Shown piece by piece: positions 3,101 through 23,989 of a stretch of 32,000 nucleotides of DNA; the first letter of the stretch is position 1, and every line of letters starts with the position of its first letter. Source of the DNA: an uncultured Candidatus Saccharimonas sp. (GTDB taxonomy: Bacteria > Patescibacteriota > Saccharimonadia > Saccharimonadales > Saccharimonadaceae); assembly GCA_963528875.1 (NCBI GenBank), contig CAURWT010000003.1:1-32000 (forward strand), written 5' to 3'. The notes under the pieces are model-generated. The model saw only the letters and a program-made list of their open reading frames with translations, searched no databases and was not told the origin of the DNA. The translations under genes and the position numbers were made by a program.

Positions 3101-3872
3101 CGACAGATATGTTAAATATTTTGAAGAGCAAACTCAACCACTTTCGCAGGTTCAACCGAATACTGATGGCCAAAAAGCAACTATTGGTGGAATCGTGATT
3201 GATGTTCGAACGATTATAACGAAATCTGGAACAAAAATGGCGTTTGTGAAGATGGAAGATAAAACTTCTGAAGGTGAGGTGATTATTTTCCCGAATCTTT
3301 ATTCTGAAATTAGCGAAAAGCTTAAAATTGATGCGGTTTTAAAAATTGAAGGAAAAATTTCCGCCCGCGACAGGGAAGGTAATTTGAAATCTGATGCTCA
3401 GATCATAGCGGAAACAGTTTCAATAATAACAGATGAGGAATTGGAAAATTATGAATCTACTGGCCGTAGGGCAGATGGCTTAAAGGCAAGAAAAGTTCCT
3501 CAAACGAAAACAGTTTCGCAAAAAGTTTCAAATACGCAGAAAAAGTCATTTACTCCTAAAAATAATAGTAGTGTGGTTTCGAATAGATCTTCAGAAAAGT
3601 CGACGTCAAATCCGTCAAAATCATCAGAAAACTATCAAGCCGAAAAAATACAAAGAGTCTTCGTTCATATTAAAAATCCAAGTGATCATGAATCATTACT
3701 TTCAGTAAAGAAAATCTGTGGAAAATTCCCAGGTATGAGTGAGATAATTTTGGTTCTTGGCGAGGTTGAGAAATCTGCAATTCGAATGCCATTTAAAGTT
3801 GACTCAAATTCAGATTTACCAAAAGAGCTAGTGAGATTACTAGGCGAAGATTGCGTTGTTCTTAAGGATTAA
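105..3872 (+). CDS. dnaE: DNA polymerase III alpha subunit (DnaE)
   Basis: 1255 aa. N-terminal PHP motif FVHLHTHTYHSLLDG, palm GPGRGSAAGS, fingers FNKSHAACYA, C-terminal OB-fold region. A Ser/Lys/Asn-rich low-complexity linker precedes the last ~70 aa. Confidence 0.97.
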   Translation: MELEEKIKTTKTFEELVPSDFVHLHTHTYHSLLDGLTKIDDLVDNVKASGMEAVAITDHGTMSGAIEFFKEATSKGVKPILGIEAYVAARTRFDRDPAHDKPRYHLVLLAKNQIGWQNLCSLTTKAWVEGQYYKPRIDHDIMAEHSEGVICLSGCAGSEISESIRAGDFEKAKELANWYKSVYGEDFYLELQDHGHPECPNHWEVQKEINDGLFRLHEELDIPMVVTCDSHYLTHENQDAHEILLCVGTGSYLNDEKRMSLKEFDLFVTDPRDIIKRWGKVDPEIILNTKRIAEKVNFEFEFGKILIPKFPLPEGEESEKGFLDKLVFQGLGERYAGIPVDEVKKMTIPEIREKLSKEVIERVDMELGVLDGMGYNGYFLIVQDFINWGKSQGIVFGPGRGSAAGSIIAYALHITDLDPLEYDLLFERFLNPDRISMPDIDVDIQDTRRNEVIQYCTDKYGIDRVANIATFGKMMAKNAVRDVARVLEVPYSEADRMAKLVPDPNQGRHIPLRVSLENDQDLKHEYETNPTAKTVYDFAMQLEGTIRNHGVHACGVVIAPDDLVKYLPLEMAQKGVVATQVPMGQVEDLGLLKMDFLGLKNLSIISTAQKIVKKTYGIDLDLSKLGLDDKKAYELLARGDSTGVFQLESAGMKRYLRELKPSKFEDIIAMVALYRPGPMSEIPKFIARKHGEEPVTYYEDHMENALKNTYGILVYQEQFMQISKEVCGFTGGQADTLRKAVGKKKIDLMKKMKGEFIEGAVKHSNADRGKVEAFWEHLEEFANYCFNKSHAACYALIAYWTAYIKAHYPDAFMAALMTADSDDTDRLAIEIAECRSMGIEVLGPDVNESFKDFAIVPHENKIRFGLLAVKAVGGGAVDAVLNARKAGGKFTSILDFAKRVNARQFNKKAWDSLIMTGAFDQFGTRSDLLFNLERIQEYGSKSQKEALSGQTDLFGFAGAEDMRVESSIELINAPKQHTDKERLTWERELLGLYVSAHPLDRYVKYFEEQTQPLSQVQPNTDGQKATIGGIVIDVRTIITKSGTKMAFVKMEDKTSEGEVIIFPNLYSEISEKLKIDAVLKIEGKISARDREGNLKSDAQIIAETVSIITDEELENYESTGRRADGLKARKVPQTKTVSQKVSNTQKKSFTPKNNSSVVSNRSSEKSTSNPSKSSENYQAEKIQRVFVHIKNPSDHESLLSVKKICGKFPGMSEIILVLGEVEKSAIRMPFKVDSNSDLPKELVRLLGEDCVVLKD

Positions 3873-3882
3873 AAGTAAAATG

Positions 3883-3911
3883 AAATCTCCAGTTAGATTC
3901 TGGAGATTTTT
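3883..3911. terminator. Bidirectional intrinsic terminator between convergent dnaE and eno
   Basis: aaatctccag(3883-3892)/ctggagattt(3900-3909), 7-nt loop, A-run upstream and T-run downstream. Confidence 0.7.
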
Positions 3912-3926
3912 AATTGTTCTGAATTA

Positions 3927-5204
3927 TTATTTTTCGAAAGGTTTTGCGAGTTCAAGTTCTGGGTGAGCTTCTGCAATTCGCATTAATTCATTATATTTTG
4001 CAATTCGATCAGTTCGTGAAAGTGAACCAGTTTTGATCTGTCCACAGCCCAATCCTACGGCTAAATGCGCAATTGTCACATCTTCAGTTTCACCTGAGCG
4101 GTGGCTCATAACAGTATTGTAGCCATTATTTTGTGCTAATTTTACAGCTTCGATTGTTTCTGTCAAAGATCCGATTTGATTTGGCTTAATAAGAATTGCG
4201 TTCGCAACACCTAAATCTATTGATTTTTGTAGAAGTTTTGAATTTGTAACCATTAGGTCGTCACCAACAAGCTGAATTTTTGAACCAAGTTTTTCGGTAA
4301 GAATCTTCCATCCATCCCAGTCATTTTCAGCTAAGCCATCTTCGATTGAAACAAAAGGATATTTCGAAGTTAGATTTTCGTAAAATTCGATCATTTCTCC
4401 GCTTGAAAGCACTGCATTGTTGGCTTTTAGATCATATTTTTCTTCTTTATAGAATTCACTTGAAGCTGGGTCTGAGGCAAAGGCGATATCTTTACCAAGT
4501 TCGTATCCAGCGTCTTTAATAGCTTCCGAAATCAATTTAAGTGGTTCTTCATTGCCGTTTTGAACTTTTGGAGCATAACCACCTTCGTCGCCAACAGTCG
4601 TTGGGTAATTTTTAGTCTTTAAAACTTTTGCTAAAGCGTGGAAAGTTTCTGCACCCATTTGAACTGCTTCGAAAATAGTTTTTGCACCAACTGGCATGAT
4701 CATGTATTCTTGAATATCAGTTGCCCAGCCGGCATGCGCACCGCCATTCATCACATTCATCATAGGAAGCGGAAGATTTGGCGCTGAATTTGTTTTTTCG
4801 GCGATATATTGCCAAAGTTCTAAGCCTTTCGCATTTGCAACAGCTTTTGCAGCAGCAAGTGAAACCGCTAAAATTGCATTTGCGCCAAGGTTTGATTTAT
4901 TTTCTGTGCCATCAAGTTCAATCATGATTTTATCGATTGCCTCTTGATCTTCGGCGTTCTTGCCGATTAGGGCTTCACGAATTTGATTATTTACAGCTGA
5001 AACAGCTTTTGTTACAGCTTTTCCGCCAAAAGCTGAACCACCGTCGCGAAGTTCAAGAGCTTCACCTGAACCTGTCGAGGCTCCACTTGGAACCGCTGCT
5101 CGGCCAAAAGCTCCGTTTTCTAAAATTACATCCGCCTCAACTGTTGGGTTACCGCGGGAGTCTAAAATTTGTCGTCCTTTAATGTCTTTAATTGTGTATT
5201 CCAT
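3927..5204 (-). CDS. eno: Enolase (phosphopyruvate hydratase)
   Basis: 425 aa. [15 protein letters not shown]-terminus, [11 protein letters not shown] and SHRSGETED signatures. Confidence 0.97.
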
Positions 5205-9839: not shown

Positions 9840-9915
9840 GCGGGTTTAGCTCAGTTGTTAGAGCGCTTCCTTGCCATGGAAGAGGCCAGGAGTTAGAGTC
9901 TCCTAACCCGCACCA
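9840..9915 (+). tRNA. tRNA-Gly (anticodon GCC), CCA encoded
   Basis: 76-nt cloverleaf: acceptor gcgggtt/aacccgc, D stem gctc/gagc, anticodon stem cttcc/ggaag, loop ttGCCat, T stem aggag/ctcct. G1-C72, C2-G71, G3-C70 match Gly identity. Unusual U19/A56 and A73. Confidence 0.93.
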
Positions 9916-9930
9916 GAAATTGCTAATTAT

Positions 9931-9966
9931 ACTACTGTAAGGACTACCTTGCAGTAGTTTTTTTCT
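9931..9966 (+). terminator. Intrinsic terminator of tRNA-Gly
   Basis: 12-bp stem actactgtaagg(9931-9942)/ccttgcagtagt(9947-9958) with one G-U, 4-nt loop, then tttttttctttt. Confidence 0.75.
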
Positions 9967-9974
9967 TTTGTTTT

Positions 9975-10004
9975 AAGGGGCACCTACTGCAAGGGGTGCT
10001 CCTT
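9975..10004 (+). other. Second hairpin whose loop repeats the terminator arm sequence
   Basis: aaggggcacc(9975-9984)/ggtgctcctt(9995-10004); the loop contains ctactgcaagg, which is perfectly complementary to the 3' arm of the preceding terminator. Confidence 0.5.
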
Positions 10005-10205
10005 TTGTTATTTCAATTGAGGCGTTGCCCATATAGCAAAGTCTCATAGAGATAAGAAAAACTCTACTAATCAATTTAAACCTTAACAATTTGGTAAAAA
10101 GTATGAATATAAGATATAAATTTTCACTTTCACCGAACGAAAACCGCAAAAATAGTAAAGATTAAAGATTGTGAGCCAATAGTTTAATGAACAGTGAAAT
10201 AAGTT

Positions 10206-10268
10206 TTCATTAGCTCAGTCGGGCTGATAGGTGCCCACATCCACTATCGGCCTAGCTGAGCTAATGAA
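10206..10268 (+). promoter_or_regulatory. Long imperfect inverted repeat / RNA hairpin just upstream of the first phage ORF
   Basis: 13 perfect bp ttcattagctcag(10206-10218)/ctgagctaatgaa(10256-10268), continued by about 10 more pairs including 3 G-U, 13-nt loop; ends 11 nt before the ATG at 10280. Confidence 0.5.
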
Positions 10269-10279
10269 GAAAGATTTTT

Positions 10280-11007: not shown

Positions 11008-11235
11008 ATGAACGATAATCAATTAACCAACCAACAAATTAAAGAATTATTCTTTGAAATCGTTTTGAAAGAAAAAGCTTATATCAAAGATGTCGATTGC
11101 GACGGTAAAAGCTACGCTACAATCGCAGGTGATATATTCGATGAAGATTTTAATGAATATTTAGATAGTATTGGCTTTTGGGAAGAGTCACCAAGTGTTG
11201 AAGCTTGGCGAGAATATAACGAAGGAGGATTTTAA
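11008..11235 (+). CDS. Small acidic hypothetical phage protein
   Basis: 75 aa; strong SD aaggaga 6 nt upstream. Confidence 0.65.
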   Translation: MNDNQLTNQQIKELFFEIVLKEKAYIKDVDCDGKSYATIAGDIFDEDFNEYLDSIGFWEESPSVEAWREYNEGGF

Positions 11236-11236
11236 G

Positions 11237-11917
11237 ATGAATAGTTTAGTTAAATATGTAAATAATGAAGTTAGGATTGAAGAGATAAAAGATTCAGCCC
11301 GATTGAAAACTATCTTAAACAATCCTGTAAATACCAAGTGGCTTAAGACTCACCCTACAGTCAAAAACGTCAAATATCTGCCGATCGATAAAATTGAAAT
11401 TTTACTTGATATGATTTTTCAAGAATGGCGGATTGAGCTTTTGAGTGTTTCTCAGCTTGCACAAAGCGTTTGCGTAACGGTTCGGGTTCACTACAAAAAC
11501 CCAATCACTGGCGAGTGGAGTTTCCACGATGGTGTTGGCGCAAGCCCACTTCAAACTAATGCTGGAAAATCTGCTGCAGACCTTGCGAATATCAAGAATA
11601 ATGCAGTTCAATTGGCCGCACCTGCTGCTAAATCTTATGCAATTAAAGATGCAGTTGAACATCTTGGTAAAATGTTTGGTCGAGATCTTAATCGAAGTGA
11701 TACGGTCGGCTATAAATTTTTATATAAAGATGAGCAGGAGCAGCAAAAAGAAGTTAAAGATAATTCGCAAGAACTCATCGCTCAGCTTAAAGCTTCAAAA
11801 AGCCTTAAAGAACTTCAAGCTAATTTTGTAAAAGGAGTTAACCAATTCAAAGGTAATAACGAAGTAATCGCGGAATTAATTAAAATTAAGGACGAATTGA
11901 AAGGCAAATTGAAATAA
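11237..11917 (+). CDS. Single-strand annealing protein, Rad52/Sak-like
   Basis: Start moved to the ATG at 11237 (SD aaggagga; the track start 11171 overlaps the previous gene). HDGVGAS...AAKSYAIKDAVEHLGKMFGRDL resembles the Rad52-family G.G...K.A.TDA.KRA..FG core. Followed by an exonuclease. Confidence 0.7.
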   Translation: MNSLVKYVNNEVRIEEIKDSARLKTILNNPVNTKWLKTHPTVKNVKYLPIDKIEILLDMIFQEWRIELLSVSQLAQSVCVTVRVHYKNPITGEWSFHDGVGASPLQTNAGKSAADLANIKNNAVQLAAPAAKSYAIKDAVEHLGKMFGRDLNRSDTVGYKFLYKDEQEQQKEVKDNSQELIAQLKASKSLKELQANFVKGVNQFKGNNEVIAELIKIKDELKGKLK

Positions 11918-12720
11918 TGAAAATCTTAAATCTTGAACAACGATCAGATGAATGGCTACACTTCCGTGAAGGTAAAATCTCCGGAAGTAAAGCCAAGGAG
12001 TTCGGCACACCACGCACTGTTTTAAAATCTGAATGGTTAGAGCTTGCGGAAAAGTTAAAAGTTGAGATTCCTTTAAACCAAAAAGGTCAACCAAAAAACT
12101 TAACAATTCAAGAACTTAAAGACTTGATTGGTGAAGCTGAAGTTGAAAAGAAAGAGTGCGAAGTTGAACTTGGCGATGCGATTTATAAACTTATCGCTGA
12201 ACGAATTGCGAAACCAATCAACGAGAACGATTATGTAGATCGTTTAAATGGTCGCAAATATTCCGCTGCACTTCGTGGTGAAATTCTCGAAGAAGAATCC
12301 CGCGAAAAAGTCGCGCAAAAACTTCGCAAAGAAATTATCGAAGGTCGAGTATGGCAATCTGATATTAACGAAAACATTATTTGTTCACCAGATGGCGAGA
12401 TTGTAAATAAAAATGGCGAAATCACTGAAGCAGTTGAAATTAAATGTTTAGACAACTGGAAACAAGTACGAGCCTTTTATGAACAACAACCACCTAGCGA
12501 ATACAAACAGCAAATTATTCAATATTTTGCAGTTAACGAAAAACTCGAAAAGCTCTATTTTGCAATGTATTCAGACTCTTTCGCTCTTGCACCACAGCTT
12601 GAACTCTTAATTTTTGAGCTTAACCGCAAAGATTTCGAAAAAGAAATTCAGCGAGCGATTTATTTCGAACAATCTGCACTTGCGTTAGTAGAACAAGAAG
12701 TAGAAAAACTATTATTTTAA
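11917..12720 (+). CDS. YqaJ-like (lambda-Exo-type, PD-(D/E)XK) recombination exonuclease
   Basis: N-terminal QRSDEWLHFREGKISGSKA (YqaJ signature); SPDGEI...EAVEIKC D..E.K motif; translationally coupled (TAATG) to the annealase. Confidence 0.8.
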   Translation: MKILNLEQRSDEWLHFREGKISGSKAKEFGTPRTVLKSEWLELAEKLKVEIPLNQKGQPKNLTIQELKDLIGEAEVEKKECEVELGDAIYKLIAERIAKPINENDYVDRLNGRKYSAALRGEILEEESREKVAQKLRKEIIEGRVWQSDINENIICSPDGEIVNKNGEITEAVEIKCLDNWKQVRAFYEQQPPSEYKQQIIQYFAVNEKLEKLYFAMYSDSFALAPQLELLIFELNRKDFEKEIQRAIYFEQSALALVEQEVEKLLF

Positions 12721-13283: not shown

Positions 13284-13292
13284 GGAGTGGAA

Positions 13293-13700
13293 ATGATCAA
13301 GAAAGAAGAACTCTTACACCTTAAAGTTTGCGATTATCTGCGCAAGAACTACCCTGATGTGTTATTTCGCACAGATTTTAGCTCAGGTATGAAAATGAGC
13401 CCAGGCCAAGCCGCCAAGCACAAGAAATTTCAGAAAGGACGAGCTTGGCCGGATTTGTTCATTGCTGAAAGTAATAACTTCGCGAGCGGTCTATTTCTCG
13501 AAATTAAAGCTGAAAATGTTATTGTTTTTAAGAAGAATGGCGAAATTAGGCAGAATAAACATTTAATCGAGCAAGATAAAATGCTTAAAGAGCTAAGGAG
13601 TAAAGGTTATCGCGCAAGATTCGTGATTGGATATGATAAAGCAATTTTCGAAATTCAGCAATATCTTGGCGAACCAAAACCAAAGAAAGTCGAATTCTGA
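13293..13700 (+). CDS. VRR-NUC-type PD-(D/E)XK nuclease
   Basis: GRAWPDLFI...GLFLEIK...Q..ML..L...GY pattern. ATG at 13293 preferred over GTG at 13287 (SD aaggag at 13282-13287). Confidence 0.7.
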   Translation: MIKKEELLHLKVCDYLRKNYPDVLFRTDFSSGMKMSPGQAAKHKKFQKGRAWPDLFIAESNNFASGLFLEIKAENVIVFKKNGEIRQNKHLIEQDKMLKELRSKGYRARFVIGYDKAIFEIQQYLGEPKPKKVEF

Positions 13701-14708: not shown

Positions 14709-15239
14709 ATGAAACAATATAAACTACTAAAAGATATGCCATTCGCAAAAGCTGGTGATATAGTGGAAATGTGGAGCGATGGGACTATGGCTTTTGCAGG
14801 CAAGCCCAATCTTCCACGATTTAATAAGGAAGATATACGAATGTTCCCACTATGGTTTGAAGAAGTTGAAGATTATTTCTATATCACCACAGATGGTTCT
14901 GTATGGTTATGTCCTAAAAATAAAGATAAGGAATTGGACAAGAACAGAAAAGCAATCGGCAACTATTTTGAAACAATCGAAGAAGCGGAAAAATACCTTG
15001 AATACCTAAAAGCTAAAACAATTATCAAACAAGATGCCAAAGGCTTTAGACCTGATTGGAATAATCATTTTGAAGATAGATACTATGCTCATTGGAATTT
15101 TGACCAAAATGAAAGCACCTGGGAGCGTGAAACCTCGTGCAAAAGTCAAGAGTTTTATTTCAAATCTCGTGAAGACCTAGAGGAAAGTTTTGAAAAACAC
15201 CCAGATGAGTGGAGAACTTATCTAACCTATGAGCAATAA
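14709..15239 (+). CDS. Hypothetical phage protein (176 aa)
   Basis: SD aaaggag 7 nt upstream; no recognisable motif. Confidence 0.65.
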   Translation: MKQYKLLKDMPFAKAGDIVEMWSDGTMAFAGKPNLPRFNKEDIRMFPLWFEEVEDYFYITTDGSVWLCPKNKDKELDKNRKAIGNYFETIEEAEKYLEYLKAKTIIKQDAKGFRPDWNNHFEDRYYAHWNFDQNESTWERETSCKSQEFYFKSREDLEESFEKHPDEWRTYLTYEQ

Positions 15240-15265
15240 AATCTCATAAAACCTTAACAATTCAA

Positions 15266-15702
15266 TTCCAGCCTTACAAGGGGCGAAAGCCCGAATGTTC
15301 TAAAATATTTACGCAAAGGGAGGATTAAACTTTTTAATCGTCCCTTGTAGGGCTGGAAACTGACTGTATTCTAGATAGGAGGAGACGCTGAGTCCCAGAA
15401 TGGGGTAAGCAATATGCCGAGCACTCTCAATGCTTTTGCCTTCCTTTCAGTTTTTCAGTCCTACGCCCTGCCATATGGCGTTAAACTGGGCGTCGCAAAA
15501 CCTAATTTTATCCGTTCGAAAAACGGTTGCTTATAAAATATAATATGTCATAAATTCATAATAGTGGCGAAAGAAATTTCGCCCCTCGAACCTGAACATA
15601 ACTAAAAAACTATAAATAATATTTAATAGAGGTAGTAAATATAGTAATAGGTTGAGCGTATTAGCGTCCGTATACGCAAAAAGTTATGTTCAGATTTGAG
15701 GG
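15266..15702 (+). ncRNA. Candidate large structured non-coding RNA, class unknown
   Basis: 534-bp gap with no + strand ORF of 60 aa or more. It contains:
- long-range helices 15266-15280/15344-15358 and 15584-15602/15683-15701;
- GAAA-tetraloop hairpins 15281-15292 and 15566-15583;
- further hairpins 15323-15339, 15512-15526 and 15656-15677.
The G-U pairs and GNRA loops only work on the + strand. Confidence 0.5.
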
Positions 15703-15773
15703 ACTAAGCAGAAACAAGCACCTTCAACACGATCATAAGCACATACCTCAATAATATTAAAGGAGAACAAAGA

Positions 15774-16001
15774 ATGGAAAATGAAGATAAATCAATAAAC
15801 ATATCAACTAACGGCGGTATAGGCTTTTTAGGAGTATTAACAATTCTGTTTATTGTTTTAAAACTAACTAATGTGATTGATTGGAGTTGGTGGTGGGTTC
15901 TCTCACCTATCTGGATACCAGTCGCAGTAGTTCTTGGAATTATTGCGATTGTAGCTATTGTGGCGTTGTTTGTAAAATTTATAGTAAACGAATTGAGGTA
16001 G
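15774..16001 (+). CDS. Small two-TM membrane protein
   Basis: 75 aa; two hydrophobic segments with a WSWWW motif between them; SD aaggaga. Confidence 0.65.
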   Translation: MENEDKSINISTNGGIGFLGVLTILFIVLKLTNVIDWSWWWVLSPIWIPVAVVLGIIAIVAIVALFVKFIVNELR

Positions 16002-16003
16002 AT

Positions 16004-16282
16004 ATGAAAAATACAGAATGGAATAAGCTTACCACAAGACCTCTTAATAATGAAGAAAAAGAGGTTTACGGAAATAGATTTGACTTTATGTGGGAAGGCA
16101 ATCAACCTGAAATAGGTGAAGAAGTTCTTGTTTATACACTTCGAAGCAAAGAAGTATATACAGATATTTGGACTGATGATTTTAATTATGGTCTCGGTTT
16201 TGAAAATACAGATGAAAAAGTCGTTTATTGGATGAGTTTCCCAGAACCACCAAGTATAGTTTCAATTCAGAAAAAAGGATAA
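16004..16282 (+). CDS. DUF551-like phage protein
   Basis: Start moved to the ATG at 16004 (SD gaggt; track start 15881 overlaps the previous gene). The ending VVYWMSFPEPP resembles the DUF551 C-terminal W.P.PepP motif. Confidence 0.55.
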   Translation: MKNTEWNKLTTRPLNNEEKEVYGNRFDFMWEGNQPEIGEEVLVYTLRSKEVYTDIWTDDFNYGLGFENTDEKVVYWMSFPEPPSIVSIQKKG

Positions 16283-17469: not shown

Positions 17470-17871
17470 ATGGCTAATCCTAATTTTAGTTCAAAAATAC
17501 TAATTCGTAAGCTAGAAGATGATTCAATAGTTGTTTTTTACGATAAGCATTCAATTTATATTAAGAGCCAAATGGGAATTTTAGTTTTTCATCGTTGGTT
17601 CGCTCCAAAAGGATATTACACTAAAAACTTCAAACCATTTTCTGAAATAGCTAAGCGCAAGAAACACTTAACAGTTAAATGCTTACTAGATGCTGGGTTA
17701 AAATATGGCGTAAGCTACGCTATGGGAACTAAAATACCAAAGCCAAAATCTGATAATCAAGAAATAAATTTTATTTCAGAAAAAGGAACTTGGACAAGAA
17801 GACTTACGGCGGACTATTATTCAGAAAAGGAAAAACAAGATATACTTAGAAAGATTGGTTATGGCGACTAA
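17470..17871 (+). CDS. Hypothetical phage protein, first gene of the packaging operon
   Basis: 133 aa from MANPNF (the GTG at 17434 lies inside the terminator hairpin, so it was rejected); overlaps the terS start. Confidence 0.6.
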   Translation: MANPNFSSKILIRKLEDDSIVVFYDKHSIYIKSQMGILVFHRWFAPKGYYTKNFKPFSEIAKRKKHLTVKCLLDAGLKYGVSYAMGTKIPKPKSDNQEINFISEKGTWTRRLTADYYSEKEKQDILRKIGYGD

Positions 17872-18283
17872 AAGAACAAAAGGTAAAGAGCGGATTTTTT
17901 CACCAAAGCAGATTAAATTTGGTATGTATTATTATTTGCCTGATTCTCCGACTTTTGGGAATGCGTTACAAAGTGCAATTCGTGCTGGTTTTTCTGAAAA
18001 ATACGCGAAGAATATTACGGTTAAGAATTTGGAATGGCTAGAAGATATTGTGGTGGAAATTGGTGGAAAAGGTGTTTCGAAAGATAAGCTTGTTCGTAAA
18101 GCTAAAAAAGTGCTAGATAAGAGCTTGGACAGTGAAGATGAAAAGATAGCGCAAGACACAGCTAAGTTTATTGCGAAGACTACAACAGAGTTTAGCGAAA
18201 AGCAAGATATAGTGTCGAACGGTGAAACGCTAACCGTTGCAACATTGGAGTTTGTGAATGGAGATAATCCGAAAGAAAGTTAA
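17861..18283 (+). CDS. Terminase small subunit
   Basis: FGNALQSAIRAGFSEKYAKN matches the GNateAAikAGYSektA HTH motif of Terminase_2-type small subunits; directly upstream of terL. Confidence 0.8.
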   Translation: MATKRTKGKERIFSPKQIKFGMYYYLPDSPTFGNALQSAIRAGFSEKYAKNITVKNLEWLEDIVVEIGGKGVSKDKLVRKAKKVLDKSLDSEDEKIAQDTAKFIAKTTTEFSEKQDIVSNGETLTVATLEFVNGDNPKES

Positions 18284-19523
18284 AGTTCCGATTGAATTTA
18301 AGCCACTGTTCGAAGAAAATAAATGGCGAAACCTTGTTTTTTATGGTGGGCGTTCGAGCGGAAAAAGCCACGACGTCGCACTCTCTCAGGTTTTAAGAGC
18401 GAGAGAAAAGAGATTGAAATTTTTAAACTGTCGAGAATTTCAGAACTCAATTAAAGACTCAACACACGCTTTAGTGAAAGCTATTATTTTTGAATACGGT
18501 TTTGAAACTGAATTTATAATTACTAATGATTCTATAAAACATAAAAGAACTGAAAGCGAATGGATTTTTAAAGGTTTGCATGACAACGTCGAAAGCTTGA
18601 AGTCTATACCGAATATTGATGAAGCTTGGGTTGAAGAGGCGAGCACCGTTACCAAGCGCTCTATTACGCTACTAAAAAACACTGTGCGTAAAGATAATTC
18701 GAGGCTTATTTTTACTTTTAACCGTGATACGGAACGTGATCCAGTCTATGTTGAATATGTGATGAAGAAGCCAGATAATACTTATGCAATTAAAGTAAAT
18801 TATGATGTGCTAGAAAAGAACGGGCTTTTCCCAGATGTGATGCGAATTGAGATGGAGAATGACAAGAAAAACAACCCTCAAGAGTTCGCTCATACTTGGT
18901 TAGGTGAGCCACTTTCGCAAATTGAAAATGCTATTTTGAGCCGTGATAGAGTGCTAAACGCTATGGATCGAGAGATAGAAGATGACGGCGAAATTCAAAT
19001 AGGCGTTGATGTGGCACGACTTGGTGATGACCGCTCTGTATTATGGAAGCGTAAAGGCTTAAAGACAATTGACTTTAAGGTTTACGAAAAACTCAGGACT
19101 AATGAGCTTGTGGAGAAAATAGAGCAGTTCGCCCAATTAGATAAGGAAGTGTTAATTAAAATCGATGACACGGGAGTTGGTGGTGGTGTTACTGATCAAT
19201 TATTAGCTAAAAATTACAATGTTCAAGGTATTAACTTTGCACAGAAAGCGGTGAATGATGACAAATACCCGAATTGGATCAGCGAAGCTTGGTTTCATCT
19301 TCAAAAAGTGATAGATGAAATACAACTGCCAAACAACACGGACTTGCTCCAAGAATTGACAACTAGAACTTGGAGTATGGATAAAAAAGGTAAGCGAGCG
19401 GTTGAAAGCAAGGGAGATTACAAGAAGCGGGGAAATAGAAGTCCTGACTTGGCTGATGCGTGCATCCTTTGTTATTATACGCCGCCAAAACCTAAACCTA
19501 TTGTTTATGCTGGCGTGAGATAA
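18258..19523 (+). CDS. Terminase large subunit (PBSX/Terminase_3-like)
   Basis: 421 aa; Walker A YGGRSSGKSH, Walker B-like IDEAWVEEAS, C-terminal RNase-H-like nuclease with IGVDVAR and DDTGVGGG. Confidence 0.92.
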   Translation: MEIIRKKVKVPIEFKPLFEENKWRNLVFYGGRSSGKSHDVALSQVLRAREKRLKFLNCREFQNSIKDSTHALVKAIIFEYGFETEFIITNDSIKHKRTESEWIFKGLHDNVESLKSIPNIDEAWVEEASTVTKRSITLLKNTVRKDNSRLIFTFNRDTERDPVYVEYVMKKPDNTYAIKVNYDVLEKNGLFPDVMRIEMENDKKNNPQEFAHTWLGEPLSQIENAILSRDRVLNAMDREIEDDGEIQIGVDVARLGDDRSVLWKRKGLKTIDFKVYEKLRTNELVEKIEQFAQLDKEVLIKIDDTGVGGGVTDQLLAKNYNVQGINFAQKAVNDDKYPNWISEAWFHLQKVIDEIQLPNNTDLLQELTTRTWSMDKKGKRAVESKGDYKKRGNRSPDLADACILCYYTPPKPKPIVYAGVR

Positions 19524-19561: not shown

Positions 19562-22099
19562 ATGTTTAGAGATTTTTTTAGCCGTTTGGTCGGCGGTAAT
19601 ATGAAAAAGAAGAGCGCCTCGCACTACGCTTTCAATCGGCCAAAATCAATGTTGGGTGCGCATACATTTTATAAAGGATTATCATATGATAATTCATATC
19701 CGTCTATTTCACGAATTGTAAATGAATTTATGACAATTAGGCCGTATGCGATAGATAATAACGGTAAAACAATTCAAGATTCGGTAGTGATGAATAAAAT
19801 ATATCATCCGAATCAACAGATGAGCGGTGCAACCTTCCGTGAAGCTTTAGCACTCCTAAGTTTGGTTTTTCCTAAAGTTTATGTTTTGGTTTGGAGCTAT
19901 AATGAACAGGGCGCTCCAACAACTGGACAAAATATTACTCCTGAAAATATAGCAGGGTTTACTATTCTTGAGGGAGTAACTGAATATTATGTTGGTGAAG
20001 AGAAGCGCTATCGAGTTGGTGCTAAAGAATACTCTGAAAATGAAATTATTGAACTGCGAAGTGGGGTTAATCCATATGATTTGAGCGGAGGATATAGCCC
20101 GACTGATGCTGCTCGAAAATGGGCATCGATTGATGATTATATCGCAAGTTATCAAGCTGGTTATTTTGAAAACGGCGCTGTGCCTGCTGGACAGTTTATT
20201 ATTACCGCTGGAAGTGTTGAAGAATATAATAATATTGTTGATGATCTGCAAGCACGACACCGTGGTAGTGGCAATAATAACAATGTGGTTTATGTTCATC
20301 GCCCAATTGAGAGTGCAACAGGTAAGCCAGTTAATGCTCAGATTGAGTGGGTACCATTTGCTGAGAGTAACAAGAATCTTGACTTAAAGAGTCTATTTGA
20401 CCAAGCTAACAAGAAAATTGACAGTATTTACGGCGTCCCTGCAAGTGTTCGAGGTGTGAATGATAATAACACTTATGCCAGTGTGCGAGTGGATGAGCAG
20501 ATTTTTATTAAATATACGATCAGGCCTTTTGCAACACGGATTTGGAGTGAATTTACACATCAACTGAACCGAATTACAGGCGGCTTAGGTTTTGCTATCA
20601 CTTTTGACCTTGATATTCCTGGTGTGGCCGAAGAAGAAAAGATTGAAGCTGAGCGTAAAGCAGCTGAATTAACTTTGATTAAGACTGGCTTAGAAATGGG
20701 CTATTCATTAGACAGTATAGTTGATGCATTTGAGCTCTCGAATGGCTATAAAACGCTTAAAATGGGTGAAACTCCACTAAAAATTGAGAATGATAAGCCT
20801 GAAGTTGATGACGGCGGCGAAGTTGAAGAATCGCCAGAAGATTTAAACGCAAAAAGCGCGCATATCTGTAATGAGTGCGGAGAACACCACTGTTTAAAAG
20901 CTGATAGGAAAACAAAAAACGAAAAGCAAAAAGATAAAGACCAGAATGCACTAGAAACTGTCTTTCGTGATATGACTAATGAGCAGATTGAGCGAGCTAT
21001 CGAGAGTGATTTTGAAGATTTTGACCTTGGCGATAAAGATCGTGAAAAATTCAAGCAAAGAATAAAGGTGATATTGCTGAGCGTGCTGGTAACCCGTGGT
21101 GTGGTGGCTTGGAGTGATTTTGTTTCAATATTAAAGCAAAACAACATATCGACTGATGACCTAACCGAATTTAAGCTTTCTGATAAGCTGAAAAAACATT
21201 ATGACAAAATGATAGCTGATTTTACTAAGAGTTTTAGTGAAGATACGGCCAAGTCGATTGCTAACAGAGTTGCTCAAGCAGAAATAGAAGACTGGAATAA
21301 GGAACAGTTAGCTCGTAGCTTGCGAGATATAACAAAAACCGAAGAATGGCGAATTCAGCGAATAGCTCGCACTGAAACACACCGAGCACACGGCCTGGCT
21401 GGCGTGGAGGCTGGTGTGCAAATTCAGAATGAATCTGGCGTGCAGATTTATAAAGAGTGGGTGGTCGTTTCGCACAATCCTTGCAAATATTGCCGTGGAA
21501 TGAACGGCAGACGAGTTAATGTAACTGAAAGTTATGTTAAAAAGGGTGGAATTTTGATTGGCAAATCGAAAATCCGAGTTAATGATTATGCTGATATCGA
21601 CACGGCTGGTGCTCACCCAAACTGTTCTTGTGTGGAGAAGTTTGGGATTGAAGAAAATAATAGTGAACCTTGGCGGAGCGTTGAAATTGAAGAGTTGCCA
21701 GCTGAGAAATTTAATGAGGTTTATGGTAAGGATTGGAAAGGCTTTAGTTTTGAAACTGAGCCACCATTAAACCAAAGAGAAAAAGAGATTGCACAAATCT
21801 TTTCAGCGCAAACAAAAAAGACACCTTTAGCGATTAGGCGAGTTGAAAAGCCGGATGGTATAAAAACTCCAGACTTATTAGTCGATGATAAGAAATTTGA
21901 GATTAAGAAAGTATCGAGCCCACGTTCGGTAGAAGATCAATTAAGGAAGGCACGTAAACAAGGAGCTTTTGGCGTAATTCTTGATATAGATGATGAAAAA
22001 TATAATTTTGAAGTTTTAGCTGCAGAGATAAAGAGAAGGCAAAAGCAGTTTAAGATTGAAGAAATATATAAGATATTGAATAACGAGATTATAGACTAA
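19562..22099 (+). CDS. Portal protein fused to a MuF/SPP1-gp7 head-morphogenesis domain and a C-terminal PD-(D/E)XK-like (putative nuclease/toxin) domain
   Basis: 845 aa.
- Residues 1 to ~430 are Phage_portal-like (FENGAVPAG, GVPASV, TIRPF).
- Residues ~560-691 are MuF-like (RIARTETHRAHG ... CKYCRGMNG ... AHPNCSCV).
- Residues ~700-845 carry TPDLLVDDKKFEIKK (PD-x8-ExK).
The start is uncertain (19562 has no SD; alternative is 19601). Confidence 0.85.
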   Translation: MFRDFFSRLVGGNMKKKSASHYAFNRPKSMLGAHTFYKGLSYDNSYPSISRIVNEFMTIRPYAIDNNGKTIQDSVVMNKIYHPNQQMSGATFREALALLSLVFPKVYVLVWSYNEQGAPTTGQNITPENIAGFTILEGVTEYYVGEEKRYRVGAKEYSENEIIELRSGVNPYDLSGGYSPTDAARKWASIDDYIASYQAGYFENGAVPAGQFIITAGSVEEYNNIVDDLQARHRGSGNNNNVVYVHRPIESATGKPVNAQIEWVPFAESNKNLDLKSLFDQANKKIDSIYGVPASVRGVNDNNTYASVRVDEQIFIKYTIRPFATRIWSEFTHQLNRITGGLGFAITFDLDIPGVAEEEKIEAERKAAELTLIKTGLEMGYSLDSIVDAFELSNGYKTLKMGETPLKIENDKPEVDDGGEVEESPEDLNAKSAHICNECGEHHCLKADRKTKNEKQKDKDQNALETVFRDMTNEQIERAIESDFEDFDLGDKDREKFKQRIKVILLSVLVTRGVVAWSDFVSILKQNNISTDDLTEFKLSDKLKKHYDKMIADFTKSFSEDTAKSIANRVAQAEIEDWNKEQLARSLRDITKTEEWRIQRIARTETHRAHGLAGVEAGVQIQNESGVQIYKEWVVVSHNPCKYCRGMNGRRVNVTESYVKKGGILIGKSKIRVNDYADIDTAGAHPNCSCVEKFGIEENNSEPWRSVEIEELPAEKFNEVYGKDWKGFSFETEPPLNQREKEIAQIFSAQTKKTPLAIRRVEKPDGIKTPDLLVDDKKFEIKKVSSPRSVEDQLRKARKQGAFGVILDIDDEKYNFEVLAAEIKRRQKQFKIEEIYKILNNEIID

Positions 22100-22279: not shown

Positions 22280-23989
22280 ATGGCAGAAAAAGTTAAGAAA
22301 ACAGCACTGGAGCTGAAAACTGAAATTTCGAAGTCCGTGGGAGAAAATGAGGAGCGAAAAATTAGGTTTGTGGCATCGAGTGTAAACGAAGATCGCCATT
22401 ACGAGAAAGTGGACGTTGCGAGCCTTCGCCTACCTTTAAAGCAAGGTGGTGAGATCCGAGCTGGAGCAATTCCGACGGAAGGAGTGAATGATTTAGTGGA
22501 TATTCCACTAATTCTAAACCATTCTGGTGATGTTCGGGACACAATTGGCTCAGTGCGAAGTGCTTTCTATGAAAATGGTGAGCTGATTTTTGAAGCGGGT
22601 ATCTCAAAACGGGAAATAGCACAAGAAATGCTGCTACTTCTTGAAGAAGGACACCTATCAAATGCGTTCTCAATTACAATGTCAGATTTTGACTATAATT
22701 TTGAAAGCGAAACGATTAGTAACGCTGAGATTATTGAGGTGAGCTTGGTTTTCCGCGGAGCTAACAGAGAAGCAAGGCTTTTGGCCGTAAAATCTCTGAA
22801 AGGTGATGAAATGAGCCAAGAAAAAGAAACTCCAGAAGTTTTGAAAAAAGAGGCGACAACTACAGTTTATCCTGAGGTTGTAGCAGACGATGAACCTGAG
22901 GTTGAGCAGGCTGAAAATTCAACCGAAAATAATAATTATAACGAAGAGAAAGAGGAAGAAATGGATAAAGAAATTGCAAAAGATGCTATTTCAAAAGCAG
23001 CACCAAGCCAAGCTGTGAAGTCTTCAAGTAATTACCTTGAAACTCGTGAGGCGATGAATGACTATGCGAAAATTCTTGAGAAATTTGCTGGTGCTAACGC
23101 TAACGAAGTGAAGAAAGCTTGGGCTGATCATGTAGCACAAAAAGGTATTAGTAATGTTGATGTTCTACTACCAGGAGCAATGGTTTCAGCAATTAGCGAT
23201 GGAATCGAGAAATCTGGAACAATTTGGAACATTCTAAATAAGACTGGATTAACTGTTCGCCGAATTGATGCCGAAACAGCTGATGCTCGAGCACAAGGAC
23301 ATAAACGTGACACAACTAAAAAAGAAGCAACATTAACATTTACTGATCGTGTGATTCGTGCTGGTTTCATCTATGATTATCTAAAATTGAACAAAGAAGA
23401 TATTGTAGAAAACCGTGATACTGGTGCTTTGGTGAAATTCGTGCTTGAAACTTTGCCAAAACGAATTATTACTGAAATTGAACGAGCAGTAGTGATTGGT
23501 GATGGTCGAAGTGGTGAAGATGACAAAATCAATAGCTTTGTTTCAATCCTAGAAGATGCTAAGAATGGAGTTTTTGCCACTGAATATACACCCGCTAAAG
23601 ATGAGTCACTTTACAAGTCAATTGTTAAAGCAGCTACAAAAATTGTTCCAGAAGGTGATGTATATATTGTTATGAGCAAATCTGCGAAAGCTGAGCTAAA
23701 ACTTTCTGAAACTAAGAGCGGTGCGCTTGTGTTCCCACTTGGTGGTGATATTGCTGGAACTTTGGAAGTTAAAGAAATCTTTACTCCAAGCTGGTTTGCA
23801 CCAGAAGGCGTTCAGGCTGTAATGTTTGTAGGTGATGCTTACGAAACAGTTGGTGATAATTCAATTGAAGCTTACACAAACTTCTCACTAAGCCAGAATA
23901 AACAAGAGTATCTACAAGAAATTTACGCTGGTGGTGCTTTGGCGAAAGTTAAAGCTGGTGTAGTAATTAAAAATCCTGCTTCGGCTTAA
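22280..23989 (+). CDS. Prohead protease (HK97/S78-like) fused via an acidic linker to an HK97-fold major capsid protein
   Basis: 569 aa. N-terminus: FVASSVNEDRHYEKV, ILNHSGD..IGSV, LSNAFSI (protease His/Ser contexts). Residues ~180-240 are an acidic low-complexity linker. C-terminal ~300 aa are capsid-like (ERAVVIGDGRSG). Confidence 0.8.
   Translation: MAEKVKKTALELKTEISKSVGENEERKIRFVASSVNEDRHYEKVDVASLRLPLKQGGEIRAGAIPTEGVNDLVDIPLILNHSGDVRDTIGSVRSAFYENGELIFEAGISKREIAQEMLLLLEEGHLSNAFSITMSDFDYNFESETISNAEIIEVSLVFRGANREARLLAVKSLKGDEMSQEKETPEVLKKEATTTVYPEVVADDEPEVEQAENSTENNNYNEEKEEEMDKEIAKDAISKAAPSQAVKSSSNYLETREAMNDYAKILEKFAGANANEVKKAWADHVAQKGISNVDVLLPGAMVSAISDGIEKSGTIWNILNKTGLTVRRIDAETADARAQGHKRDTTKKEATLTFTDRVIRAGFIYDYLKLNKEDIVENRDTGALVKFVLETLPKRIITEIERAVVIGDGRSGEDDKINSFVSILEDAKNGVFATEYTPAKDESLYKSIVKAATKIVPEGDVYIVMSKSAKAELKLSETKSGALVFPLGGDIAGTLEVKEIFTPSWFAPEGVQAVMFVGDAYETVGDNSIEAYTNFSLSQNKQEYLQEIYAGGALAKVKAGVVIKNPASA

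What the first reader, a model, noticed from the sequence alone, without database searches (positions are those of the whole stretch)
15266..15702. Roughly 440-nt helix-dense, ORF-free region with GAAA tetraloops inside the prophage: candidate large structured RNA
The 534-bp gap between the stop at 15239 and the SD of the 15774 gene has no + strand ORF of 60 aa or more, and by eye it is more GC-rich than its flanks.

Helices seen:
- A 15-bp long-range helix, 15266-15280 with 15344-15358 (one G-U). It encloses a GGGC-GAAA-GCCC hairpin (15281-15292) and a GATTAAA/TTTAATC hairpin (15323-15339).
- A CCGTT/AACGG hairpin (15512-15526).
- A GGCGAAA-GAAA-TTTCGCC hairpin (15566-15583).
- A 19-position long-range helix, 15584-15602 with 15683-15701 (17 Watson-Crick pairs, 1 G-U, 1 mismatch). 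It encloses a GCGTAT/ATACGC hairpin (15656-15677).

The GNRA loops and G-U pairs exist only on the + strand, the same strand as the phage genes. Large ornate RNAs such as GOLLD and ROOL are known to be prophage-borne, but I cannot assign this element to any known class. It could be a new phage RNA, for example anti-defence, assembly or regulatory.
Basis: partly seen in the sequence, partly recalled or inferred. Interest (0 to 1): 0.8.

Follow-up and report, generated by a model that had tools for sequence, protein, structure and literature searches.

The report
Two conserved phage RNA hairpin domains
The gene-free stretch in this Saccharibacteria (TM7) prophage is not one big ornate RNA. It holds two separate folded RNA elements, conserved in related oral phages and matching no known RNA family, that sit at the boundary between the early genes and the DNA-packaging genes.

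Summary

The structure is concentrated in two domains:
- Element A (15266-15358) is a 93-nt three-way-junction hairpin, z -8.2.
- Element C (15566-15702) is a 5' hairpin plus a 20-bp imperfect helix that encloses an AU-rich core and an optional hairpin, z -7.0.

The sequence between and after them is not unusually structured.

Both elements recur in more than 50 human-oral phage or prophage contigs whose host is Candidatus Saccharimonas. Nothing in Rfam 15 matches. Element C shows compensatory changes at 16 of 33 pairs. Element A shows them at 2-3 pairs, and its core stem is invariant in sequence. In both, one-sided changes are almost always G-U on the + strand, which points to a + strand RNA.

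A and C are separable:
- The distance between them is 30-892 nt, sometimes with genes in between.
- Each occurs without the other.
- The GNRA loops are not conserved.

A single 440-nt GOLLD/ROOL-like RNA is therefore not supported.

My best guess (confidence about 0.4) is cis-acting intercistronic mRNA elements, acting as processing or stability sites or as a leader, at the early/late junction. This is a new RNA motif pair of moderate interest.

The parts
15266..15358 (+). Element A: a 93-nt three-way-junction hairpin. P1 is 15266-15279 with 15345-15358, P2 is 15281-15292, and P3 is 15318-15344. An alternative 19-bp extended P1 is also possible.
   Evidence: MFE -44.5 kcal/mol, z -8.18. The covariance model R1 scores 102.6 bits on + against 33.9 on -, and finds one copy in the window. 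The element is present in 44 distinct sequences. Covarying pairs are 3/91 (C-G 22, U-A 16, U-G 5) and a P3 pair (U-A 21, C-G 21).
15281..15292 (+). P2 hairpin of A (GGGC-GAAA-GCCC).
   Evidence: The stem is kept in 44 of 44 sequences while the loop varies. Pairs G16-C27, G17-C26 and G18-C25 are at least 93% G-C, and the rest are G-U.
15318..15344 (+). P3 hairpin of A (GGGAGGATTAAA / TTTAATCGTCCC, with a conserved G.G mismatch).
   Evidence: Compensatory T-A to C-G change in 21 against 21 sequences. U-G intermediates occur in 9. A longer P3 variant is seen in L139/L189-type relatives.
15359..15463 (+). Module B: an optional spacer between A and C.
   Evidence: Present in only about 7 relatives. 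Not more stable than shuffles, z -0.30. Replaced by nothing, by other sequence or by ORFs elsewhere.
15464..15492 (+). B': a small hairpin (CGCC 15464-15467 / GGCG 15477-15480, loop CTGCCATAT) followed by TTAAACTGGGCG.
   Evidence: Conserved upstream of C in most variants. Compensatory variants CGAC/GTCG (L002, L004, L089) and CACC/GGTG (L139) are seen. It is absent where A abuts C directly.
15493..15544 (+). A subtype-specific insertion of about 34 nt carrying the CCGTT/AACGG hairpin (15512-15526). It creates a sigma-70-like promoter, TCGAAA (15516-15521), 17 nt, TATAAT (15539-15544).
   Evidence: The promoter scan gives 10 of 12 matches. The insertion is shared only with L012, L129, L133, L143 and L161, and partly with L152. 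No equivalent promoter is conserved in other variants.
15566..15583 (+). H1: the GC-rich hairpin immediately 5' of the long helix of element C.
   Evidence: 5 of 7 pairs show changes on both sides (GGCGAAA/TTTCGCC, GGAGGAG/CTCCTCC, GGCGGA/TCCGCC, AGCGAAA/TTTCGCT, GGACGAA/TTCGTCC).
15584..15603 (+). 5' arm of the 20-bp helix C2 of element C.
   Evidence: Pairs with 15682-15701. 8 of 20 pairs have changes on both sides and 8 vary on one side only, and 94.1% of cells are paired. The mismatch position 15591/15694 is kept as C.A in 29 of 30 MAFFT-aligned sequences.
15604..15655 (+). AU-rich interior of C, including the most conserved core (window GGTAGTAAATATAGTAATAGG 15631-15651; relatives ATGTGGTAGTTATAATAATAGG).
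   Evidence: The core is identical in variants whose helix arms have diverged strongly (L141, L139, L146). It occurs once in the window. It contains a TATAAT-like hexamer in relatives.
15656..15677 (+). H2: an optional hairpin inside C (GCGTAT / ATACGC).
   Evidence: 3 of 6 pairs are compensatory (GCGTG/CACGC, GCATG/CATGC, TGTGTAT/ATACACA). It is absent in the L002, L139, L146 and L141 types.
15682..15701 (+). 3' arm of helix C2.
   Evidence: As for the 5' arm.
15702..15773 (+). D: a conserved leader running to the Shine-Dalgarno (AAGGAG 15760-15765) and the ATG at 15774 of a 75-aa membrane protein. The window has lost the 3' half of a hairpin (GCAGAAACA...TGTTTCTGC) that most relatives carry.
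   Evidence: Alignment. Unstructured in the window, z +1.02. The same leader precedes different genes in different phages.

Best explanation
The gap holds two independent cis-acting RNA structures, A and C. Both are carried on the phage's rightward polycistronic transcript, at the junction between the early recombination genes and the gene block that leads to the terminase.

Each element presents a roughly 19-20-bp imperfect double-stranded helix with fixed wobble or mismatch positions. That is the geometry of an RNase III-type or other dsRNA-specific recognition site.

The proposed mechanism has three steps:
1. The helices are recognised.
2. The long transcript is cut or insulated there, so that early and late mRNA segments acquire separate fates.
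3. The remaining hairpins protect the new 3' end (A) and 5' end (H1/C) from exonucleases.

In this window a subtype-specific insertion adds a plausible sigma-70 promoter just upstream of C, so here C would also be the 5' leader of the downstream operon.

Shown: the structures, their conservation, the strand, their modularity and their position.

Inferred: transcription as one mRNA, recognition by a nuclease or protein, and the effect on mRNA stability or expression.
For: Structure:
- z -8.2 for A and -7.0 for C.
- In C, 16 of 33 pairs changed on both sides, against 7.8 +/- 1.4 in shuffles (0 of 500 reach it), and 93.7% of cells are paired.
- A has covarying pairs in P1 and P3.

Strand:
- In C2, polymorphic deviations are G-U at 10 positions against A-C at 1.
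- In A, U-G or G-U intermediates total 21 cells against 2-3 A.C cells, and a U.G at 15274/15350 is fixed in 44 of 44.
- Both elements are on the same strand as all phage genes.

Stems against loops:
- In 15 sequences of A retrieved through neighbouring proteins, stems are 87-95% identical pairwise and loops 44-74%.
- The P1 core is invariant even in loci retrieved through C's interior.

Intercistronic position:
- A starts about 27 nt after a stop codon. In some phages it ends 10-20 nt before the next Shine-Dalgarno.
- The flanking genes vary for both elements. They therefore behave as positional punctuation rather than as regulators of one gene.
- A and/or C always lie between the Rad52-like/exonuclease block and the block ending in terS/terL.

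Other points:
- Helix lengths are 19 bp (extended P1) and 20 bp (C2).
- Neither element is followed by a U-tract, whereas host terminators are canonical.

From established knowledge: T7 and SP82 mRNAs are cut by RNase III at conserved intercistronic hairpins, and the cleavage products act as stabilisers.
Against: - There are no transcript data, so the ends and any cleavage are unknown.
- The P1 core of A and the interior of C are conserved in primary sequence well beyond what pairing requires. This suggests a sequence-specific partner that I have not identified, or a DNA-level role.
- The z-score of C is as strong on the - strand.
- Each element is single-copy per genome. T7 has about ten RNase III sites.
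- The relatives are a closely related population: the exonuclease is 94-99% identical. Some conservation is therefore simply recent ancestry.
- Many loci were retrieved with exact patterns in A's arms, which inflates the invariance of P1.
- Alignment A7 was fitted to the model, so its pair counts lean towards the structure.
- I did not check whether the host encodes RNase III.
Confidence: 0.4

Rival explanations
1. Promoter plus regulatory leader. C (with B' and the AT-rich stretch) is the late-operon promoter region and its structured 5' leader. It would act in cis on RNA polymerase (processive antitermination of the put or lambda-Q-leader kind) or as the binding site of a late activator or antiterminator. 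A would close the early operon.
For: - C is followed at a fixed distance by a Shine-Dalgarno and then by whichever gene heads the block leading to terS/terL.
- The window has TCGAAA-17-TATAAT at 15516-15544.
- Most variants have at least a TATAAT-like -10 between A and C with a poor -35, as activator-dependent promoters do.
- The most conserved part of C contains TATAAT.
- In the f2-A-f3 context, A is followed by a canonical terminator hairpin plus TTTT.
Against: - No promoter is conserved in position or sequence across variants. The L048, L099, L134, L164 and L165 types score at most 7 of 12, with A only 30-40 nt upstream.
- No terminator lies downstream of C for an antiterminator to overcome.
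- Some phages have A but no C in front of the same late block (L151, L040, L158, L159).
- A promoter inside the C2 loop would exclude the 5' arm, yet pairing of that arm is under selection.
Confidence: 0.2
2. DNA-level or single-stranded-DNA element. The inverted repeats would mark a replication origin or lagging-strand (sso-like) priming signal, a packaging signal, or a protein-binding palindrome flanking an AT-rich unwinding region.
For: - C has an AT-rich core flanked by 20-bp inverted repeats, and it folds equally well on both strands.
- No replication initiator, helicase or primase is visible in the early region. Only a Rad52-like protein, an exonuclease and a resolvase-like protein are found.
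- The primary sequence of the P1 core and the C interior is invariant.
- TAGCGT at 15662-15667 in the H2 loop resembles, from my memory, the CS-6 motif of ssoA.
- G.T pairs are also tolerated in folded ssDNA.
Against: - There are no iterons or direct repeats.
- The wobble asymmetry (G.T yes, A.C no) rules out a purely double-stranded DNA palindrome.
- H1, H2 and P3 covary freely in sequence, as structural hairpins do.
- TAGCGT and H2 itself are absent from most relatives.
- The elements lie about 2 kb from terS, not at the usual cos or pac position.
- The interior has the same orientation in 37 of 37 sequences, so it is not an invertible promoter.
Confidence: 0.12
3. One reading: one large (about 440 nt) ornate non-coding RNA comparable to GOLLD or ROOL.
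For: - The whole gap folds with z -5.05.
- In 7 distinct contexts A and C are only 30-57 nt apart, so a contiguous RNA of about 300 nt is physically possible there.
- It is borne on a prophage.
Against: - A and C are separable and each occurs alone.
- ORFs lie between them in about a third of contexts.
- The intervening sequence is not structured.
- No helix between A and C is conserved. The 10-nt complementarity 15279-15288/15577-15586 is lost where H1 changes.
- The loops are not conserved.
- There is no Rfam match.
Confidence: 0.05
4. Trans-acting small RNA(s), for example an anti-defence decoy or mimic such as a CRISPR-repeat-like RNA, or a base-pairing regulator.
For: - The invariant primary sequence of the P1 core and the C interior would suit recognition by a protein or pairing with a target.
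- There is a weak cmscan resemblance of the - strand of A's 3' arm to CRISPR-DR2.
- Saccharibacteria carry type II-A, II-C1 and III-B CRISPR systems (PMC10746230).
Against: - The CRISPR-DR2 hit is at chance level (16.9 bits against a gathering score of 37, E 4.5), and it lies on the strand disfavoured by the wobble pattern.
- There is no dedicated promoter or terminator around A or C.
- A can sit 10-20 nt from the next gene's Shine-Dalgarno.
- No complementary target is found in the window.
Confidence: 0.08

Closest known systems
RNase III processing sites of phage polycistronic mRNAs (T7 R0.3-R18.5; Bacillus phage SP82 early-mRNA sites)
   Same: - Conserved, imperfect helices of about two turns.
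- Placed between genes on the coding strand of long phage transcripts.
- Independent of which genes flank them.
- The hairpins left after cutting can stabilise the mRNA.
(Established knowledge; the position and geometry here come.)
   Different: - No cleavage evidence here.
- One copy of each element per genome, not about ten.
- A is a three-way junction, and C encloses a 50-80-nt conserved AU-rich interior.
- The sequences are unrelated.
- The host is a CPR bacterium.
Structured late-operon leaders and cis-acting antitermination RNAs (lambda PR'-qut-6S leader; HK022 putL/putR)
   Same: - A structured RNA at the head of the long late operon.
- Two stem-loop units (H1 plus C2).
- It acts wherever it is placed, not on one specific gene.
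   Different: - No conserved promoter upstream.
- No terminator downstream.
- No sequence or Rfam similarity.
- Some relatives lack C in that position.
GOLLD, ROOL and other large ornate prophage-associated RNAs
   Same: Non-coding, structured, carried on a prophage, and of unknown function.
   Different: - No covariance-model match.
- Much smaller units (93 nt and about 140 nt).
- Separable rather than one architecture.
- No conserved multi-helix junction core.
- Embedded between genes with no sign of being an autonomous gene.
PeSL (promoter-early stem-loop) cassettes of T4-type phages and boundary sequences of lambdoid phages
   Same: Conserved intergenic stem-loop (plus or minus promoter) cassettes that flank a hyperplastic zone of small shuffled genes. 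Here the small genes f3, f11 and f7/KGG and others are swapped in and out between A and C.
   Different: - Unrelated sequences.
- Here the structures show RNA-strand-specific covariation.
- A role in recombination is only a possible side effect.

Membership tests
Any Rfam 15 family (GOLLD, ROOL, HEARO, raiA, group I/II introns, ribozymes, tmRNA and others) | Match to the family covariance model at its gathering score | tested here: not met
   Only tRNA is found in the window. In 15150-15850 the best hit is E 0.66 (MIR5649, 19 bits against a gathering score of 100). Six related loci give only a tRNA.
Large ornate RNA (single multi-domain RNA of 400 nt or more) | The domains co-occur as one contiguous conserved unit | tested here: not met
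   The A-C distance is 30-892 nt, with ORFs in between. C occurs without A (L128, L131). A occurs without C (L151, L040, L158, L159).
Large ornate RNA | Conserved tertiary-contact motifs (GNRA tetraloops and receptors) | tested here: not met
   The P2 and H1 loops vary freely in sequence and length.
Intrinsic (Rho-independent) terminator | GC-rich hairpin followed directly by a U-tract | tested here: not met
   A is followed by AACTGACTG and C2 by GACTAAGC. The scan flags only the weak CCGTT hairpin. Host terminators at 3882-3910, 9931-9958 and 9975-10004 are canonical.
RNase III-type intercistronic processing site | Imperfect dsRNA helix of about 20 bp (two turns) on the mRNA strand between genes | tested here: met
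   Extended P1 is 19 bp with 99.6% of cells paired. C2 is 20 bp with 94.1% paired. The intercistronic placement is shown.
RNase III-type intercistronic processing site | Cleavage by RNase III, and a host that encodes rnc | not testable with these tools
   No transcript or enzymatic data are available, and the rest of the host genome is not in the window.
Riboswitch or ligand-binding aptamer | Conserved unpaired junction nucleotides and a constant regulated gene | tested here: not met
   J2/3 of A is only 61% identical pairwise and varies in length. The downstream genes differ between phages.
Cis-acting processive antitermination RNA (put, EAR) | Lies just downstream of a promoter, with terminators further downstream | tested here: inconclusive
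   A 10 of 12 promoter exists only in the window subtype, and none is conserved. No terminator-like site lies between 15702 and terL apart from weak matches at chance frequency.
CRISPR repeat mimic (RNA anti-CRISPR) | Significant similarity to a CRISPR repeat of the host | tested here: not met
   CRISPR-DR2 scores 16.9 bits against a gathering score of 37, E 4.5, on the - strand. Host arrays could not be searched.
tRNA or tmRNA-like element | Detected by ARAGORN or the Rfam tRNA model | tested here: not met
   Only tRNA-Gly(GCC) at 9840-9915 is found.
Invertible promoter (inverton) | The segment between the inverted repeats is found in both orientations | tested here: not met
   The interior has the same orientation in all 37 distinct sequences. 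The segment is only 65-80 bp.
ssoA-type single-strand origin | Conserved CS-6 (TAGCGT) in the terminal loop (consensus recalled from memory) | tested here: not met
   TAGCGT at 15662-15667 occurs only in the window, L004, L089 and L155 subtype. H2 differs or is absent elsewhere.

The most novel reading that the evidence does not exclude
A and C are the RNA recognition modules of a dedicated regulatory switch in phages of CPR bacteria that has not been described. A phage- or host-encoded factor would bind the invariant P1 duplex of A (with its fixed U.G) and the invariant AU-rich core displayed on the C2 helix. That binding would time the early-to-late transition by programmed mRNA cleavage or by processive antitermination. 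This would be a new RNA-protein system, not an ordinary RNase III site.
Probability: 0.2. Interest if true: 0.6.

Novelty: new variant of a known kind. Interest (0 to 1): 0.4.

Why it matters
Phages of Saccharibacteria and other CPR bacteria are almost unstudied experimentally, and nothing is known about how they regulate their genes.

These are two well-supported RNA structure families that are not in Rfam. They lie exactly at the early/late junction of a widespread group of human-oral TM7 prophages, so they give concrete handles for study: sequences to map in metatranscriptomes, and baits for finding the binding factor.

They also act as conserved linkers around a zone where small accessory genes are shuffled, which is relevant to how these phages become mosaic.

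If they prove to be ordinary processing or stability hairpins, the finding is useful annotation rather than new biology.

Tried and rejected
- Rfam at gathering and permissive thresholds, on the window and on six related loci: nothing found.
- BLASTN against INPHARED phages: no match.
- ARAGORN: no tRNA or tmRNA-like gene in the region.
- Small ORFs in the gap. The 40- and 37-aa ORFs lie in optional sequence. The 22-aa ORFs at 15686-15754 (+) and 15531-15599 (-) are mirror artefacts of the palindrome, and indels disrupt their frame in relatives. Rejected as coding.
- Intrinsic terminator: rejected because there is no U-tract.
- A conserved sigma-70 promoter upstream of H1: not found across variants.
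- Long-range A-C pairing (15279-15288 with 15577-15586): not maintained where H1 covaries.
- Additional copies or complementary targets of the conserved cores in the window: none.
- Module B as a structured unit: z -0.3, only six sequences and no real covariation.
- An AU hairpin H3 inside C (ATTATAA/TTATAAT): mixed support, with some compensatory changes and some broken pairs, and lost in L141. Left open.
- Inverton, integron attC, cos/pac site and CRISPR-repeat mimic: each considered and set aside for the reasons given in the membership table.
- The genome and metagenome scans used exact patterns in A's arms, which biases P1 towards invariance. I corrected for this with loci anchored on proteins and on C's interior.

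Full report
**Context**

The window is a low-GC bacterial chromosome. It carries DnaE at 105-3872, enolase at 3927-5204 (- strand) and tRNA-Gly at 9840-9915. A prophage follows. Its identified genes are:
- a Rad52-like annealing protein at 11171-11917;
- an exonuclease at 11917-12720;
- a resolvase-like protein at 13287-13700;
- terS at 17855-18283 and terL at 18258-19523;
- a portal-MuF fusion at 19562-22099;
- a protease-capsid fusion at 22280-23989.

A genome scan with a pattern from the element hit three MAGs. One is an uncultured Candidatus Saccharimonas whose locus L132 is 99% identical to the window across the element. The host is therefore a Saccharibacteria (TM7) bacterium. The related contigs come from human-oral samples.

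**Observation**

There is no + strand ORF of 60 aa or more in 15240-15773.

The 534-nt gap folds to -147.9 kcal/mol against -111.9 +/- 7.1 for dinucleotide shuffles, z -5.05. The - strand gives z -4.11.

Folding the pieces separately shows that the signal comes from two domains:
- 15266-15358 (element A): z -8.18 on + and -4.71 on -.
- 15563-15703 (element C): z -7.00 on + and -8.03 on -.
- 15359-15466: z -0.30.
- 15464-15530: z -0.88.
- 15700-15773: z +1.02.

GC is raised only over 15200-15500.

**Known families**

Rfam 15 gives only the tRNA at gathering thresholds. In 15150-15850 nothing scores better than E 0.66, and six related loci also give nothing. Cultured-phage genomes have no similar DNA.

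**Relatives**

I collected more than 50 distinct loci, using:
- the flanking 176-aa protein;
- DNA patterns;
- the exonuclease.

The exonuclease is 94-99% identical among them, so this is a closely related but highly mosaic phage population.

**Element A**

Forty-four distinct sequences align over 93-99 nt.

The minimum-free-energy fold is a three-way junction: P1 of 14 bp, P2 of 4-5 bp, and P3 of about 12 bp with a conserved G.G. A variable linker of 20-30 nt sits in it. A 19-bp extended P1 is an equally compatible alternative.

Covariation:
- Pair 3/91 is C-G in 22 sequences, U-A in 16 and U-G in 5.
- One P3 pair is U-A in 21 and C-G in 21.
- A neighbouring pair is U-A in 34, U-G in 9 and C-G in 1.
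- The U.G at 15274/15350 is fixed in 44 of 44.

One-sided changes are G-U on the + strand in 21 cells and A.C in 2-3 cells.

Many loci had been fetched with exact patterns in the arms, so I repeated the comparison on less biased sets. In 15 sequences anchored on proteins, stems are 87-95% identical pairwise, the P2 loop 74%, the linker 61% and the P3 loop 44%. In loci anchored on C's interior, the P1 core is still invariant while P3 and the linker differ.

The core of P1 is therefore constrained in sequence as well as in pairing. The window holds a single copy.

**Element C**

C consists of:
- H1 (15566-15583);
- the 20-bp helix C2 (15584-15603 with 15682-15701);
- an AU-rich interior;
- an optional hairpin H2 (15656-15677).

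On a MAFFT alignment of 30 sequences, C2 varies at ten pairs, and always between Watson-Crick and G-U on the + strand. There is one near-fixed C.A mismatch.

A covariance model then recovered diverged copies (L146, L083, L139, L026, L153, L156, L113, L141). On the 37 distinct sequences:
- 16 of 33 pairs have changes on both sides, against 7.8 +/- 1.4 in shuffles (0 of 500 reach it). By helix these are H1 5 of 7, C2 8 of 20 and H2 3 of 6.
- 93.7% of cells are paired, against 30-47% for slid partners.

This alignment was fitted to the model, so the counts lean towards the structure. The compensatory variants are nevertheless visible by eye. For example, L141 has CATAAAATCTAAACACAAAA paired with TTTTGTGTTTAGATTTTATG, a perfect 20-bp helix.

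The interior core ATGTGGTAGTTATAATAATAGG stays identical in variants whose arms have diverged.

**One RNA or two?**

The distance from A to H1 falls into three groups:
- 30-57 nt in 7 distinct contexts;
- 140-226 nt in 14, including the window at 208 nt;
- 460-892 nt in 13.

In the last group one to three small ORFs lie between them, including a KGG-repeat protein.

Further evidence for independence:
- L128 has C with no A in 8.4 kb upstream, and L131 likewise.
- L151, L040, L158 and L159 have A followed directly by a Shine-Dalgarno and a gene, with no C.
- L099 has two copies of A and L144 has two copies of C.
- The 10-nt A-to-H1 complementarity in the window is lost where H1 covaries.
- The P2 and H1 loops are not conserved as GNRA.

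These are two independent structured elements, not a single 440-nt RNA.

**Position**

A follows at least eight different gene families. C precedes at least nine.

A and/or C always lie between the recombination block and the block that ends in terS/terL.

In the f2-A-f3 arrangement, A is followed within about 8 nt by a canonical, covarying terminator hairpin plus TTTT and then a Shine-Dalgarno. Neither A nor C2 has a U-tract of its own, while the host's terminators are canonical.

A sigma-70-like promoter (TCGAAA-17-TATAAT, 15516-15544) exists in the window. It is created by an insertion of about 34 nt shared with only a few relatives. No promoter is conserved across variants.

**Interpretation**

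The wobble asymmetry, the covariation and the co-orientation with the genes all argue for folding of the + strand, most simply as mRNA.

The elements are independent of the flanking genes. Their helices are about 20 bp with fixed non-Watson-Crick positions, and they lie between cistrons. These features fit cis-acting punctuation of a polycistronic transcript: recognition by RNase III or another dsRNA-specific factor, with the hairpins protecting the new mRNA ends. Phage T7 and SP82 work this way (established knowledge). In the window subtype C may in addition be a true 5' leader. I give this explanation about 0.4.

The invariant P1 core and C interior imply a sequence-specific partner that I could not identify. 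This keeps three alternatives open: a promoter/antitermination reading (0.2), a DNA or ssDNA-level role (0.12) and a trans-acting RNA (0.08). The single-large-RNA reading is largely refuted (0.05).

**Novelty**

These are new RNA motifs, absent from Rfam and from the literature I could search. They belong to a known general kind, namely cis-acting structured elements in phage operons. Interest is moderate. It comes mainly from the host: a CPR bacterium whose phages are essentially uncharacterised (PMC10746230).

Noticed in passing
window 19562-22099 (+): The 845-aa portal protein is fused to a Mu-F-like domain and has a C-terminal CdiA_C toxin-like domain (Pfam E 7.8e-6, 26.4 bits, just under the 26.6-bit cut-off). 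It looks like a MuF-type polymorphic toxin carried by the virion.
   Followed up: no
window 9840-10270: tRNA-Gly(GCC) is followed by two strong canonical terminators (9931-9958, 9975-10004) and then phage genes. No integrase lies at this end, so this is the likely left prophage junction and the integrase is presumably beyond the window's right edge.
   Followed up: partly
window 10078-10091 and 15249-15262: An exact 14-nt repeat, AAACCTTAACAATT. One copy lies in the non-coding stretch near the left prophage end. The other lies immediately upstream of element A, where TAACAATT is conserved in about half of the relatives. This is borderline for chance, and its meaning is unknown.
   Followed up: partly
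L006 2250-2300, and the same place in L061, L099, L142, L144 and others: In phages where small genes follow A, a canonical terminator hairpin (ACCATATTGCTGA..TCAGCAAAATGGT plus TTTT; it covaries, for example GCCCA/TGGGC in L144) sits between A and the Shine-Dalgarno of a 47-aa gene, leaving no room for a promoter. This suggests attenuated read-through.
   Followed up: partly
L099 4677-4769 and 6462-6554; L144 7835-7973 and 8862-9000: One relative carries two diverged copies of element A and another carries two copies of element C, each pair separated by a few small genes. This is consistent with these elements acting as recombination linkers around a gene-shuffling zone.
   Followed up: partly
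window 15686-15754 (+) and 15531-15599 (-): Two 22-aa ORFs begin with the same peptide, MFRFEG, because each starts in one arm of the C2 inverted repeat. They are mirror artefacts. Indels break the frame in relatives.
   Followed up: yes
window 15774-16001 and 15881-16282: The listed 133-aa ORF overlaps the 75-aa membrane-protein gene (phrog_1374). Relatives indicate that the real second gene starts at the ATG at 16004 (MKNTEWNK..., 92 aa).
   Followed up: partly
window 22280-23989 (+): The 569-aa protein has a capsid domain of the Lactococcus-phage type at its C-terminus (Pfam E 1.1e-12) and a weak, sub-threshold prohead serine protease match at its N-terminus (Peptidase_S78, E 0.0073, 16.9 bits against a 21-bit cut-off). 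It may be a protease-capsid fusion.
   Followed up: no
window 15702-15773 compared with relatives (alignment A3, columns 164-248): Most relatives have a further hairpin, GCAGAAACA...TGTTTCTGC, in the leader between C and the Shine-Dalgarno. The window has lost its 3' half through a deletion of about 20-30 nt, so that hairpin is dispensable.
   Followed up: partly
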